From: Isurus oxyrinchus
Lineage: Eukaryota
Assembly (NCBI GenBank): GCA_026770705.1
Contig: JANJGN010000151.1
Coordinates: 620,001 to 684,000 of the forward strand
Direction of reading: 5' to 3'
DNA: 64,000 nt
The position numbers were made by a program. Every line of letters begins with the position of its first letter. The first letter of the stretch is position 1. Below, in pieces: positions 42,901-48,900 of the stretch.

Positions 42901-45900
42901 CCGAAATCTAACTGATTATTTCCATCCAGCTCCCTATGTTGGTCTGTTCCGTTCTCCGTCCTGTATTTTCAAGTGTTCCAATAAATACATCAATGCTATT
43001 TCCAACTATTCCCTGCCACAGCAGGTTCCTCATTCTGACTTGTCTTTGTGTACTCCCAAACTGGAAATCAAACATGACTGAAATAAAACACCTTTTTACA
43101 TATAACGCACCGCAGGGCTGGTGCAGGAAGCATTTGGTTAAATGACAGGGAGAGTTTGCATTCATTCACGTGTGCTCTGCGCCTGGGCAGGTCCTTGGAC
43201 GATTTTCTGCAATTACTTCGCATTGAGCTGTTTTCTTGGCAGCTTTGTTTGTCGTTGTTTTTAATTGCCTTCCACTCGCAGGAGCAGGAAGGACTCAAGT
43301 CAACCTCAGCCAGAACGCGGACAGAAACCATGTTATTGGCATTATTCCAAACCAGACACTAGCCACCTAGCCAGCGGAGCTAACCAGCTGCTACTTAGCC
43401 TTGGTGTATGTTGTGTACGTCTGCCAGGATATTAGTAATGTAACTGCAGCTCATCATATTGTAACCTGAACTCCAGTCGCTGGGCCATGGAAGATACCGG
43501 ACCTGAGGCGCCGGCCTTCAGGTCAGACGTCTAACTGATGCCCCACCAGCCCATTCAGGGCGATGTTAAACAATGTCCAGAATATTAGAATAAGAGCGGT
43601 ACGTGGGGATTCACCTGGTGCCCTGGGCCCACATTTCACGTTTAACAAACACCACCCAATACAAACACATGCACCACCTCCCAGTTCATTACTGAGGGGA
43701 AAGGAAGGCGGCAGCACAACTGGCAGAAAGAAAAGCTCCCCTTCCCCACTCCTGTACACCAGAGTATTGTGGGAGGGGCTTTCACATCCGGATCACAATC
43801 CAAATGTGGAGTCAGAAAATTGCAGCCTCCTTTTATAAACCTGTCTCTTATTCACACAACACTTAGCCAGCGACCTGGGGACCGTCCAGCCCAACAATGA
43901 TCTCAGCGGAACCGCCCCGTGCAAATCAACTTCGATCCCCCTAAAGTATTTCAGTCTAGCTCTGAGGCCCGGTCTCCCAGTGCAGTCCAGGACTGCAGTC
44001 TCCAGCTCCCCGTCATATAAACCCTCAGCTCCAGACAGAAGAACGATGGGAATCCTCCTTGTTTTCATGCTGTGTGTCTGTTTACCCCGTGAGTAGCGAT
44101 CAAACAAACTGACATTGTGTGGATTTAATATAAAGCTGCTCGAGTCCATCCCAACTACAGACACTGTCTGGGGTTTTAACCCCGCACTGTGGTTCTCTGA
44201 TGGTCCATTAAACTCTCTCTGTTTAATTTCCAGGCTTTTTCAGTCAGTCAGTGACACAGACCCCGGCAGCGGTGACCAGGAAGGAGTGTCGTCAGCCTCT
44301 CACCATCACCTGTGTTTTCTCCGGTGCTTCGCGGGATTATTTCCAAACGGGATATTTCTTCAGACAAACCCAGACCGGGACAGAGCGGGAGCGGATCTCC
44401 AGCGGGGGGAGATTTGTTGTGTCGGTGAATAAAGCACAAAAGACATTTTCGCTGGAAATTCAGGAATTGAGAGTTGAAGACACCGCCACCTATTACTGTA
44501 AAGCTTAGTACCGGTATTACAGATACACAGTGATGGGTCTCAGCTTCCCGCGATACAAAAACTCTCACTGTAGATTATCACAGAAACAAATGAAAGAGCG
44601 GAGTTAATCTGCAGTTAAACCCCCACAGTTCCGCGTCACACTGTCTATTTTATAATGAGACTGGATTATTGCTGTTAACATCTTGAGTGTGTGTGGATGG
44701 TGATGTCTTTCCCGGGATTGGTGTCAGTGAATGGGGATTGGGAATGATTGATCCCAGTTAGAAACCCCTAACGCCAGATGTGATCCTGGTCTAACAGCTG
44801 GAACCGGGAACCGCTGCCCCCGCTGTTTATGATGTCCCCAAATCTTCGCAAGTACCCGAGGGATTTTATACTGACTTGTAACACTATGTGGATGGGGTAC
44901 GTGGAATCACAGTGGGAGAGACCTTAACAAATACCTCTGTCCAATCACAATATAAATTCTCCGCGCCCGGATAGTGAATTGTCGGGTTGATTTTATTATC
45001 TCTGGAATCTGATTACAATTCATTGTAATTTCCATTATTCAGTTATTGTTCTTTGTTGTTCTGCTCGGTTGTTGTGAAGCTATTATCTCGTTCCCGGACC
45101 ATTTACTCTGAGCTCAGTGCCTTAAAAAGAAGAGTTTGAACCGACAGAGACTTTGAAAATTGTTTATTTATTTAAATCAGTTGAATAATTGGGCAGTTTC
45201 TACTGTCTGATGATGATTTCCCGGCAGGTTAAAGTGTCGGTGGTTGTTGTACCGGGGACACTGAGAGCGGAGTCACTGTGGAAATATTATGTGGATGGAT
45301 CCGGGACAGTGTTGACTGTTACAGCCGGTAAGTGACTCCATACTCCGCCGGGTTACAGCCTGTCTCGGGTAATGTTCACCGTCAGTTTATTATTGATATC
45401 AGTGGTGTTTGGGGGAGATGTTAGAGTTGACGGAATCTGGACCATTATTAGTTCAACGGGCACATCGGGGACACCATCAACACCACGGACTCTCACACTC
45501 TGAATCGCTTTTAATGAGCATGGATTGTCAACACTCAGGACTCCACACCCCGTATTAACTGTGACCGAGGCAGATCTATCTGTCCCTTAGAGCCCGGGAG
45601 CGAGGTCCCAGAACTCTCTCCTGGGCAGCAGATTGCAGTCTGAGCCGCACAATGTGAATGAGGTACCGGGTGAATAAACTCAATACAACTGCGGCCAGTT
45701 CGGATACCTGCAGCGGCTCGTTCCAGACCTGACCCGGAAGAAAAACGGGAGAGTGACACAAGGGGCCTCAGATATATGAGATGCTGATGTGGGTCCAGGT
45801 TGAATTCTATATTTGGACAATCAGTCACGAAAATTAGTGACATTGTCTGTGCCATTTCTTTCAATTGCCTTTATAGAACCAATCACTTTCCTCCTTTTCC

Positions 45901-48900
45901 GTCCTTAAAATGAAATGTGAAAGTTTGGAAATGCAGACACTTCTCTATATTGAATGTAGATGATTGAGATATGGGATTGCTGTAATTTATCTGTATCTCT
46001 GATTCCTGTGAATTGAAACAGCACAGTGCAGTGAGAAAGTGAGGATGATATATTAATCTTATAAAGGAGAAAAGGGACATAAGGAAACAATTATAAACAA
46101 GGAGAATGCTCATTTAGAACCAGCAAGAAAAAATAATCGAAAGGGAGAGAACGATTGGATGATTTCTGGGCGATTTTCAAAGTAAATTCCGACTCAGTGG
46201 TAGGTGAGGTTTATGGAGGGAAGGACTGAAATAGACTCCAGTCCGGAATGCTGTGTAAAGTTTTGGTCCCCTTACAGAAGGGAGATCAATCGTCATTGGA
46301 ATGAGTGCAACAAAGGTTCATCAGACTGATTCGTGAGATGAAGGGATTGCCCAATCGGATGAGATTTAGTCGTCTCGGCCTATATTTCCTAGAGTTTAGA
46401 AGAATGAGAGGTGATCTCATGAAAATATATAATATTCTGAAGGGACTTGATAGGGCAGATTCTGAGTCAGTGTCTCCCCAGACTGAGGAGTATATAAGTC
46501 GGGGTCACAGCTTCAGAATAAAGAGTCATCGATTAGAACTGAGAAGGAAAATAAATCTTCAATAGAACCACTGTTGTTAATCTGTGGCATTCTGTAACTC
46601 AGAGAGCGGTGGGTGTTCATAATCTGTATGCATTCTAGACAACATTCGATAGGTTTTCGGACACTAAAGGGATCAGGGATATGGGGAGAGTGCGGGAATG
46701 TGACGTTGCGGTTGTAAATCAGCCAGGATATTACTGAATGGCTGAGCAGGTTTGAAAGGTGATGTGGTGGCTTTTCTTCTATTGATTGGATTCTCTGCTT
46801 TTGTTTCTTACACTCCTGAGGGAAGAAACAATCATCAACAATCCACATCTCTCTGGGAAGATTGAACAGTCTGGGTCTCTTTTTTCTGGAATACAGAACC
46901 ACAAGGAGAATCCATATGAATCTTTCAATTTTGAACGGGTTTAAGTTGGACAAGTTGAGTCTAAAGCAATAGCTGTCAACACATGACAGTAGCTAACAGA
47001 ACAGATCAAACATTTAAGACAAATTAATTTAAACAAAGGCAGGTCAGAATGTGGAACTTGCTGCCTCAGGGAGAGGTTGGAGATAGTATTGATATATTTA
47101 TTGGATCACTTGAAAATAGAGGAGGGAGAATGGAACAGACCAACACAGGGAGCTGGATGTAAATGGTCAATTAGATTTCTGGTGGGGTCAAGCGGGAATT
47201 GATTATATGCACAGGCTGCGTGGTCCATTCCTCTTCCGCATTCTTCTTCCTCGATAATGTAAAATTGAGAGAAAACTCCGGCCAGAGAACCTGGGACAGA
47301 ATCAGTTAACTTGCGGAAAGAATTGAAATTGTCAGAGAGCCGGAAGAGGCAGTTCCCAGTGACTAACAGTAAAACCACTGCGGAAACTGAACAGACTAAA
47401 CCCAGCCGACAAGTGAGAGAGTTTGGGACAAGTTCCCACGGTTGCAAAAAAGGCAACAGCATATAATAAATGTGAAATAAAGGGAATGTGAAATTAAAGA
47501 AATAAAATGAAATTAATTGCACCTATTTGATATTAAGCTGAACTGGAGAAAATAAGACCCTATTGACAGAGCATAATGAAATAGAGCAAAAGGCAGATAG
47601 AAATTCCTGAGCAGTTATAAACCGCAGTAAGTGATTGACCTTCCACCACGAGAGATGCTCACTCTTGGTTTGACCCAATCGGTGCGGATGAACCCCATCA
47701 GTTTATGTTGGATTTTGCTATGCGCAGTGATGCCACACAGCTGTGTCCCTCTCTGACAAACATGGTTTTTTTGGAAACTGGTTGCCTCGCTGAACATAAA
47801 ATACTCCCTCGTGTTTGTTTCTCACCAAGGAAAATAGAAACAGGAATGTAATATAATTCATAGAATTATCCAGCACGGAAGGATGATATTCGGCCAATTG
47901 TGTTGGCGCTGACCCTTTAAAAGTGCAATACAAATGTTCCCACGGCCCATGAATTTACTCTAGAGCTCTATATTTGTATTTACATTTCCAATACAGACCC
48001 GTTATCCGTTTGAAAGTCACTATTGAATCTATCCCCTACACCAATTCAGGCAGTGCAGTCCTGATCGGAAGAACTCGCGACGTAAAATAAAACATCACCT
48101 CATCCCCCATTTAGTCATATTTTCATAACAGTGAACATGGTTCAAATAGGCTTCCAGCAAGTTAAATTACTGCAAAAAGCAGAGCTATTCGCGCGATTGA
48201 CAGATTCTCCTGGACAAACAGTGGCTGAACAAAAAGATAGTGTTCATTTTCTTATCCTACAGATTTCAGTTCCATAATTTCCTGGATTTCGCCTCTACAA
48301 ATGTCTGCTGTCGGTGACACCGTTACTTTAAACTGTGAATATTCAGGGTTCTGCACAGTACACTGGTACCGTCAGTCCCCAGGACAGGCTGCTGAATATC
48401 TTCTTCAGAGACGCACTTCAGGAGAGGAGAATAAAGAAAACGCTGCCGGGGGGAGAATTTTTGCTTCTATCGATTCTACTGAGAAAATCAGCTGGTTAAC
48501 GATCTCCGAACTACAACTAAGCGACCCCGTTGTTTATTACTGTGAACTGAGTCGGTGCACAGCACAGTGATATAGAACACGGAGGGAGCTGTACAAAACC
48601 TCAACATGGTGGGGATTAGAGATACTCAGTGATGCAGAGCACGGAGAGAGCTGTACAAAAACCATGAACATGTTGGAATTACAGACACACAGTGACACAG
48701 AGCACTGAGAGAGCTATACAAAAACCTGAACATGGTGGGATTACAGACACAGTGATACAAGGCACAGAAAGAGTTAAAATAATTGTCCATTTTCGGGTTT
48801 AAGTTGAAAGGAGCATACACACACACGTATACACACACACACAGACACACACACGCAAATGCACACACACACAGAAGGGGGTAGCGGGAGGCAATCACTC

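What the first reader, a model, noticed from the sequence alone, without database searches (positions are those of the whole stretch)
44046..48601. Complete NAR-TCR cassette (doubly rearranging, two-V-domain TCRdelta chain)
Seen: L, V(22-RSS), D(12/12), J(23-RSS), then 2.9 kb later a leaderless V with its own 23-RSS, in phase with the J donor (G|AT). Non-canonical Cys occur in NAR V FR1 (44287-44289) and in supporting-V CDR1 (48352-48354). Known: this is the NAR-TCR architecture of cartilaginous fish, where an IgNAR-like VDJ is spliced onto a supporting Vdelta-D-J-Cdelta and the two extra Cys are proposed to form an inter-domain bond. The ORF track captures only fragments of it.
Basis: partly seen in the sequence, partly recalled or inferred. 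Interest (0 to 1): 0.7.

Follow-up and report, generated by a model that had tools for sequence, protein, structure and literature searches.

The report
Shark NAR-TCR gene cassette, stop-bearing copy
This is an ordinary, unrearranged copy of the shark "NAR-TCR" gene cassette, which builds a T-cell receptor chain with two variable domains, but its first V segment carries a stop codon, so this copy may rarely or never work.

Summary
On the + strand lie a leader exon, an IgNAR-like V with a 22-spacer RSS, one D flanked by 12-spacer RSSs, and a J with a 23-spacer RSS and a consensus splice donor. A leaderless V follows 2,935 nt later. It opens at a strong acceptor in the matching phase and has its own 23-spacer RSS.

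Both diagnostic extra cysteines are present, and the NAR V lacks the canonical Trp. In 53 of 57 database relatives, all named ones from sharks, the NAR V is followed by this same kind of second V. In 51 of them the J lies between the two. No constant-region exon and no conserved leader for the second V were found.

So the NAR-TCR reading is supported and the IgNAR reading is rejected.

- An in-frame TAG at 44506-44508 in the V tail, where relatives mostly have Gln.
- An imperfect 5' D heptamer.
- A 3.4-copy tandem array of the second V's RSS.

The kind is fully known, so interest is low. The exons were searched one by one. The joined model was not searched.

The parts
43919..44021 (+). Possible promoter motifs: an octamer-like GTGCAAAT (43919-43926) and TATAAA (44016-44021). 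This is a lead only.
   Evidence: Read directly. The consensus motifs are recalled. The TATA-like site is only 25 nt before the ATG. No conservation test was possible.
44046..44088 (+). Leader exon of the NAR V (14 codons plus 1 base, phase 1), with donor GT at 44089.
   Evidence: It is 93% identical (13 of 14 residues) to residues 1-14 of many relatives. It was the only leader candidate in the control scan upstream of the V, and a strongly hydrophobic one.
44234..44525 (+). NAR-type V exon. The extra a-b loop Cys is at 44287-44289. The motif YFFRQ replaces the Trp-containing motif. An in-frame TAG lies at 44506-44508 in the CDR3-coding tail.
   Evidence: translation. Pfam V-set, E 4.8e-8. The best PDB matches are shark VNAR domains, E 3.8e-20. 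There are 57 shark relatives at 58-87% identity.
44526..44563 (+). V RSS: CACAGTG, 22-nt spacer, ACAAAAACT.
44861..44935 (+). Single D segment (coding 44889-44907) with 12-spacer RSSs on both sides. The 5' heptamer is imperfect: CACTATG on the + strand, which reads CATAGTG from the coding end.
   Evidence: The relaxed scan of 44500-45330 found no second D-like pair of RSSs.
45242..45327 (+). J RSS (GGTTGTTGT, 23-nt spacer, CACTGTG) and J coding 45281-45327, with donor GTAAGT at 45328 and phase 1.
   Evidence: The J peptide matches relatives between their two V domains. This holds in 51 of 57 relatives.
45328..48262 (+). Intron of 2,935 nt between the NAR J and the second V. It holds a repeat-element fragment and no conserved leader.
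48263..48562 (+). Leaderless supporting V exon (TCR-delta-type V by the literature). Cys 48334-48336, extra CDR1 Cys 48352-48354, Trp 48364-48366, Cys 48541-48543. The frame is open. CDR1 is two residues shorter than in relatives.
   Evidence: Pfam V-set, E 2.6e-10. It is 55-80% identical to the second domain of 55 of 57 relatives, against at most 41% to the full-length Vs of the window.
48563..48773 (+). Supporting-V 23-spacer RSS (48563-48601), which is the first unit of a 63-nt tandem array of 3.4 copies. Unit 3 (48688-48726) is a perfect consensus RSS. Units 2 and 4 are degenerate.
41796..43052 (-). Inverted, truncated paralogue of the last 1.2 kb of the intron plus the first 79 nt of the supporting V exon. 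It is a relic and not part of the working cassette.
   Evidence: blastn gave 77.5% identity over 1,313 columns.

Best explanation
This is a germline, unrearranged NAR-TCR cassette inside a shark TCR V-gene array. I put that identity at about 0.95.

How such a cassette works is partly shown and partly inferred.
- Shown: the 12/23 rule allows V (22/23-spacer RSS) to join D (12-spacer) and D (12-spacer) to join J (23-spacer) within 800 bp. It forbids direct V-J joining.
- Shown: the second V has its own 23-spacer RSS, so it needs a separate rearrangement.
- Inferred: that second rearrangement joins it to D/J-delta segments lying outside the window.
- Inferred here, but seen in relatives' gene models: transcription starts at the NAR leader. 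The J donor at 45327/45328 is spliced to the acceptor at 48262/48263 in phase 1, making an Asp codon. The rearranged second V is then spliced to C-delta.
- From the literature: the product is a three-domain delta chain. Its unpaired outer NAR domain is thought to bind antigen alone, tied to the supporting V by the two extra cysteines.

This copy is probably crippled. A TAG at 44506-44508 occupies a codon that relatives keep, mostly as Gln. Only joints that trim at least 18 nt from the V end could be productive. The 5' D heptamer also departs from CAC at its third position. I put the probability that this copy is non-functional or only rarely productive at about 0.6.
For: - Anatomy and RSS spacing.
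- Translations with both extra Cys and no Trp.
- Defining features as stated in PMC1845163 passages.
- Relatives: 57 hits among 95 candidates. The 55 that carry a species name are all from sharks, and none is named IgNAR. In 53 of 57 the NAR V is followed by the supporting V, and in 51 of 57 the J lies between them.
- Five Mustelus models continue from the second V into a J-like stretch and a TCR constant and transmembrane part.
- There is one D only, against three in IgNAR clusters (PMC4279169 passage).
- No C exon was found.
- Neighbouring Vs resemble TCR alpha/delta V most among single-domain PDB chains.
- TAG. The residue at that position after Cys-x-Ala in relatives is Gln in 26 of the 57 occurrences counted, and otherwise mostly His, Glu, Arg, Lys or Asp.
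Against: - No transcript or rearranged DNA of this copy could be examined.
- The TAG lies in the part of the V that nuclease trimming can remove. It could also be an assembly error or one allele.
- The effect of the CATAGTG heptamer is inferred from general RSS knowledge (recalled), not measured.
- D-delta, J-delta and C-delta are not in the window, so use with C-delta is taken from the literature and from relatives.
- The leader scan is imperfect. For 3 of the 8 control Vs other than the NAR V it found no convincing leader either.
Confidence: 0.6

Rival explanations
1. It is the same NAR-TCR cassette, but functional. Either the TAG is routinely lost by trimming of the V coding end, or it is a sequencing or assembly error, or it is an allelic variant.
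For: The TAG is in the CDR3-coding tail, 17 nt from the coding end. Everything else is intact: open frames, both splice sites, four near-consensus RSSs and an open supporting V.
Against: At least 18 nt must be removed. Relatives retain this codon and the next one, with Gln-Tyr in 23 of the 57 occurrences counted. The 5' D heptamer is also off-consensus.
Confidence: 0.33
2. Chance neighbours: a NAR-type V-D-J cluster beside an ordinary V-delta that has its own, undetected leader, so that no two-V chain is made from this locus.
For: One hydrophobic ATG-started candidate exon lies at 47688-47742, 520 nt before the acceptor and in the right phase.
Against: - Its donor is weak (GTGTCC). The implied intron is 3-5 times longer than the L-V introns found in this window.
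- In the inverted paralogue, 4-nt and 13-nt gaps break the frame and the GT is lost.
- No 54-174 aa relative of the second V exists in the protein collection.
- In 53 of 57 relatives this V type follows a NAR V.
Confidence: 0.04
3. It is an IgNAR heavy-chain cluster, or a fragment of one.
For: The best solved-structure matches of the V are IgNAR V domains.
Against: - Identity to them is about 52% (45 of 86 aligned residues, counted by hand). Identity to two-V shark models is 58-87%.
- The aligned VNARs carry Trp in the motif and no a-b loop Cys.
- There is one D, not three.
- No constant exon was found in 18.7 kb downstream.
- The cassette sits among TCR-type Vs.
Confidence: 0.01

Closest known systems
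NAR-TcR of nurse shark and other cartilaginous fish (Criscitiello, Saltis and Flajnik 2006, PNAS 103:5036). The paper was not held here and is known through citing passages.
   Same: A leader-bearing NAR-type V with the a-b loop Cys and no Trp. Its own D and J. A leaderless supporting V with a CDR1 Cys and its own RSS. A location among TCR alpha/delta Vs.
   Different: This copy has an in-frame TAG in the V tail and a CDR1 in the supporting V that is two residues shorter than in the 57 relatives. The D number and intron length of the published nurse-shark genes are only recalled, not checked.
Elephant shark NAR-TcRV and associated TcR-delta V (PMC1845163, passages and the legend of Figure 3).
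   Same: The same four diagnostic features, stated there explicitly.
   Different: No chimaera sequence appeared among the hits, so no direct comparison was made.
IgNAR heavy-chain clusters (V, three D, J, C exons; PMC4279169 passage).
   Same: A related V domain. A compact V-D-J cluster with a splice donor after J.
   Different: One D here. No C exons. An extra a-b Cys. No Trp. The J splices to another V instead of to C1.
TCR-mu of marsupials and monotremes (PMC3457774, PMC7615758 and PMC2275272 passages).
   Same: It works alike: a three-domain chain with an unpaired outer V on a supporting V.
   Different: It is convergent and not related by descent. The outer V is VH-like, the loci are clustered, and the supporting V is germline-joined in marsupials.

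Membership tests
NAR-TCR cassette | N-terminal V of NAR type with its own leader exon | tested here: met
   Leader 44046-44088. The best PDB matches of the V are VNAR domains. The V is 58-87% identical to shark two-V models.
NAR-TCR cassette | Cys in the a-b loop of the NAR V (PMC1845163) | tested here: met
   TGT at 44287-44289. A matching motif is present in 50 of 57 relatives by regex.
NAR-TCR cassette | No canonical Trp in the WYRK-type motif | tested here: met
   The window reads YFFRQ. The aligned VNARs have Trp at this place.
NAR-TCR cassette | Own D and J with RSSs that allow V-D-J joining | tested here: met
   Spacers are 22, 12/12 and 23. Caveat: the 5' D heptamer is CATAGTG from the coding end.
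NAR-TCR cassette | J splice donor in phase with a downstream V exon that opens at an acceptor | tested here: met
   Donor GTAAGT at 45328 and acceptor AG at 48261-48262, both phase 1. The same domain order is seen in 51 of 57 relatives.
NAR-TCR cassette | Supporting V lacks a leader | tested here: met
   There were 20 ATG-started candidates in the intron. The best nearby one is not preserved in the paralogue. No stand-alone relatives of 54-174 aa were found. Absence cannot be proved without RNA.
NAR-TCR cassette | Cys in CDR1 of the supporting V | tested here: met
   TGC at 48352-48354. A strict regex finds the motif in 37 of 57 relatives.
NAR-TCR cassette | Second, separate rearrangement of the supporting V to D/J-delta and splicing to C-delta | not testable with these tools
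   Its 23-spacer RSS is present. D-delta, J-delta and C-delta are not in the window. Five Mustelus models show the full chain.
NAR-TCR cassette | Location in the TCR alpha/delta V array | tested here: inconclusive
   About 12 other V-like segments or fragments lie on both strands. One of them is closest to TCR alpha/delta V among single-domain PDB chains. The protein search on it gave no named relatives.
NAR-TCR cassette (functional member) | Open reading frame through the V segment | tested here: not met
   TAG at 44506-44508.
IgNAR cluster | Three D segments (PMC4279169) | tested here: not met
   One D only.
IgNAR cluster | IgNAR constant exons downstream of J | tested here: not met
   No Pfam family in 10 of the 14 + strand ORFs of 84 aa or more in 45328-64000. 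The four left out were the supporting V itself, two simple-repeat ORFs and one overlapping Pro-rich ORF. No IgNAR C query was available for a direct search.
TCR-mu | VH-related outer V in a mammalian clustered locus | tested here: not met
   The outer V is of NAR type and the relatives are sharks.

The most novel reading that the evidence does not exclude
The supporting V is followed not by one RSS but by a 63-nt tandem array of RSS units (48563-48773), and unit 3 is a perfect consensus RSS. Read-through tails of relatives' gene models match this array beyond the first RSS. These come from Hemiscyllium, Rhincodon, Stegostoma and Pristiophorus, with a best E of 4e-10.

If the array is kept by selection across shark orders, it may be a working feature of NAR-TCR cassettes. 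It could act as a RAG-loading platform or as decoy and back-up RSSs. Either could help a promoterless, leaderless V rearrange, or could time the second rearrangement relative to the first.
Probability: 0.15. Interest if true: 0.5.

Novelty: new member of a known kind. Interest (0 to 1): 0.25.

Why it matters
It shows that a reader without tools can recognise a doubly rearranging antigen-receptor cassette from raw sequence. It also gives exact segment, RSS and splice coordinates for one copy. For shark immunogenetics it adds one likely non-functional member to the germline NAR-TCR repertoire.

Three small leads could be followed cheaply in published shark genomes:
- the tandem RSS array after the supporting V;
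- a possibly weakened 5' D RSS;
- hints that some lamniform copies carry a germline-joined NAR VDJ.

The biology of the kind itself is already established, apart from its unknown ligands (PMC7615758 passage).

Tried and rejected
I sent stop-free ORFs by reference instead.
- The protein search for near-length relatives of the supporting V found none. The same search for a conventional V of the window also found none, so the neighbouring Vs could not be named from annotated relatives. The PDB was used instead.
- For the supporting V, the PDB search was dominated by multi-domain scFv chains and did not separate delta from alpha or Ig.
- The primary NAR-TcR paper and a 2021 review were not held.
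- No eukaryotic genome collection was available, so nothing could be compared at DNA level with other sharks.
- Structure prediction, complex prediction, the search of protein representatives and the protein-atlas search were not used. None would return the Cys-Cys geometry or change the verdict.
- The joined (spliced) protein of L+V or J+second V was never built, searched or folded.
- The N runs were left untouched.
- The IgNAR-cluster and chance-neighbour readings were considered and rejected, as set out under rival explanations.
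Full report
**Setting.** The window is 64,000 bases at 43% G+C. It has three N runs (22210-22349, 23234-23413, 25054-25366), which I left untouched. It is not human. Its V segments' relatives are all shark proteins.

Searching the window with four V-exon translations from it found about 14 V-like segments or fragments on both strands. They lie near 359-640(-), 4289-4423(-), 5473-5751(-), 8458-8547(-), 15527-15823(+, split between frames), 17643-17927(-), 31155-31445(-), 33403-33723(+), 35868-36158(+), 41019-41291(+), 41798-41869(-, fragment), 44236-44505(+), 48265-48561(+) and 62413-62676(-). 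Only one of them, at 44236-44505, is of NAR type. Its best non-self match in the window is 34% identical.

The conventional V at 31155-31445(-) is closest to human TCR alpha and delta V among single-domain PDB chains; multi-domain scFv chains score higher by adding domains. A protein search on it gave no named relatives.

| Element | Coordinates | Notes |
|---|---|---|
| Leader exon | 44046-44088 | donor GT at 44089, phase 1 |
| L-V intron | 44089-44233 | 145 nt |
| V exon | 44234-44525 | see below |
| V RSS | 44526-44563 | 22-nt spacer |
| D 5' RSS | 44861-44888 | 12-nt spacer |
| D coding | 44889-44907 | 19 nt, open in all three frames |
| D 3' RSS | 44908-44935 | 12-nt spacer |
| J RSS | 45242-45280 | 23-nt spacer |
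| J coding | 45281-45327 | donor GTAAGT at 45328 |
| Intron | 45328-48262 | 2,935 nt |
| Second V exon | 48263-48562 | opens after a pyrimidine-rich AG |
| Second V RSS | 48563-48601 | 23-nt spacer |

The V exon translation shows the two domain cysteines, an extra Cys at 44287-44289 and the motif YFFRQ without Trp. The J donor leaves a G that completes G|AT (Asp) at the second V. The second V has an open frame, the canonical Cys/Trp/Cys and an extra Cys at 48352-48354.

A strict RSS scan found 10 sites in the window, against a mean of 0.78 (maximum 4) in 100 block shuffles. Four of the cassette's five RSSs are among the 10. The relaxed scan added the 5' D RSS and found no second D.

- Two codons after the V's second Cys there is an in-frame TAG (44506-44508). 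A further 17 nt of coding tail follow before the heptamer.
- The 5' D heptamer is CACTATG on the + strand. From the coding end it reads CATAGTG, so the third position is T where RSSs almost always have C. That general rule is recalled, not tested here.
- The second V's RSS is the first unit of a tandem array (see 'Things seen in passing').

**Identity.** Both V exons score as Pfam V-set (E 4.8e-8 and 2.6e-10).

The best solved-structure matches of the first V are shark VNAR domains, led by 7spp_C at E 3.8e-20. Identity there is about 52% (45 of 86 aligned residues, counted by hand). Those VNARs carry Trp in the motif and have no a-b loop Cys.

I searched the protein collection with the V exon alone, against longer proteins. 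This gave 57 hits at E up to 0.001 among 95 candidates, at 58-87% identity. Fifty-five are named gene models from Carcharodon, Cetorhinus, Heterodontus, Mustelus, Stegostoma, Rhincodon, Scyliorhinus, Hemiscyllium, Chiloscyllium and Pristiophorus. Two come from an unnamed source. None is named IgNAR. The names are automatic ones, such as 'uncharacterized protein' and 'T cell receptor alpha chain MC.7.G5-like'.

I then matched the four window exons separately to these 57.

| Test on the 57 relatives | Count |
|---|---|
| Hold the NAR V | 55 |
| Hold the second V at 55% identity or more | 55 |
| Hold both V domains in that order | 53 |
| Have the J between the two Vs | 51 |
| Start with the leader | 38 |

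The second V is 55-80% identical to their second domains. It is at most 41% identical to the full-length Vs of its own window. No relative of 54-174 aa exists for it in the collection, which is weak evidence because that search is word-based. Five Mustelus models continue from the second V into a J-like stretch and a TCR constant and transmembrane part. They show the three-domain chain that the literature describes.

*Constant exons.* tblastn with ten long relatives found only V parts and two repeat-element tails (21259-21574 and 52144-52419). It found no J-delta or C match in the window. There are 14 + strand stop-to-stop ORFs of 84 aa or more in 45328-64000. I scanned 10 of them in Pfam and none matched any family. 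The four left out were the second V itself, two simple-repeat ORFs at 54684-55170, and a Pro-rich ORF overlapping two that I did scan. I had no IgNAR C sequence to search with directly.

*A hidden leader.* A scan for ATG-started, phase-1, GT-ended exons in the intron gave 20 candidates. Two are hydrophobic. One (45372-45450) lies 2.8 kb from the acceptor. The other (47688-47742) lies 520 nt away and has a weak donor.

The window supplies its own control. The stretch 47030-48341 has an inverted, truncated paralogue at 43052-41796, 77.5% identical over 1,313 columns. In that paralogue the acceptor and the exon start are kept. The candidate leader is broken by 4-nt and 13-nt gaps, and its GT is lost. 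The paralogue is itself a relic, so this argues against a conserved leader but does not prove its absence. The scan also failed to find convincing leaders for three of the eight control Vs other than the NAR V.

**Mechanism.**
- Shown by sequence: the RSS spacers allow V-to-D and D-to-J joining and forbid V-to-J. The second V needs a rearrangement of its own. The J donor and the second-V acceptor are in phase.
- Taken from relatives: the same J-to-second-V junction, with Asp at the join, appears in the gene models.
- Taken from the literature: the chain uses TCR-delta C, pairs with gamma, and carries an unpaired NAR domain thought to bind antigen alone. The two extra cysteines are labelled 'putative interdomain disulfide'. 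I saw passages only, not whole papers.
- This copy: relatives keep the codon that is TAG here. It is Gln in 26 of the 57 occurrences counted, and otherwise mostly His, Glu, Arg, Lys or Asp. Only joints that trim at least 18 nt could be productive. I rate 'non-functional or rarely productive' at about 0.6.

**Comparison and novelty.** The cassette meets every sequence-level feature that the citing papers give for NAR-TcR. It fails the IgNAR tests: one D against three, no C exons, an extra Cys and no Trp. It works like mammalian TCR-mu but is not related to it. It is therefore a new copy of a fully known kind.

The primary paper (PNAS 2006) was not held. Details such as the published D number and intron size are recalled only. 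Supplements were closed. Table S1 of PMC12227049 may already list this locus.

**Things seen in passing.**
- A 63-nt unit, made of the second V's RSS plus 24 nt, is repeated 3.4 times at 48563-48773. Unit 3 is a perfect consensus RSS.
- Read-through tails of gene models from four other shark genera match the array beyond the first RSS, with a best E of 4e-10 over 49 residues. The array may therefore be conserved. Using a distal unit would place a stop just after the V end, by my reading.
- Two lamniform models, P0006 and P0009, have the same CDR3 in their NAR domain. That suggests germline-joined copies in those genomes. Searches for 'NAR-TcR' with 'germline-joined' (7 papers) and with 'recombination signal' (8 papers) were seen as listings. 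In the papers I opened, the passages found around 'NAR-TCR' said nothing about either point.

**Left out.** The joined protein was not built, searched or folded.

Noticed in passing
window 48563-48773: The supporting V's 23-spacer RSS is the first of 3.4 tandem 63-nt units. Unit 3 (48688-48726) is a perfect consensus RSS, and units 2 and 4 are degenerate. Gene-model tails from Hemiscyllium, Rhincodon, Stegostoma and Pristiophorus match the array beyond the first RSS.
   Followed up: partly
window 41796-43052 (- strand): An inverted, truncated copy (77.5% identity) of the last 1.2 kb of the J-to-second-V intron plus the first 79 nt of the supporting V exon. It lies head-to-head with the cassette's promoter side.
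   Followed up: yes
proteins P0006 (Carcharodon) and P0009 (Cetorhinus): Two species' gene models share the same CDR3 in the NAR domain. This points to germline-joined NAR VDJ copies in lamniform genomes, whereas the window copy is unjoined.
   Followed up: no
window 44882-44888: The 5' D heptamer reads CATAGTG from the coding end, departing from the near-invariant CAC. It may weaken V-to-D joining.
   Followed up: partly
window 48340-48366: The supporting V's CDR1 is two residues shorter than in the relatives, which have Gln-Tyr after the extra Cys.
   Followed up: no
window 43919-44021: An octamer-like GTGCAAAT and a TATAAA lie upstream of the leader. The TATA-like site is only 25 nt before the ATG, so its role is doubtful.
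   Followed up: no
window 40013-40292: An unexplained tandem array of 4.7 copies of a 60-nt unit, about 700 nt upstream of the V at 41019-41291.
   Followed up: no
window 46305-46562, 52141-52698, 21259-21574: Repeat-element fragments. The fragments at 52144-52419 and 21259-21574 match the non-V tails of two relatives' gene models, P0027 and P0020. The one at 46305-46562 lies inside the cassette's intron and its repeat-element nature is judged by eye from its translation. None matched a Pfam family.
   Followed up: partly
whole window: V segments lie in both orientations, and several are fragments or frame-split: 4289-4423, 8458-8547 and 15527-15823.
   Followed up: no
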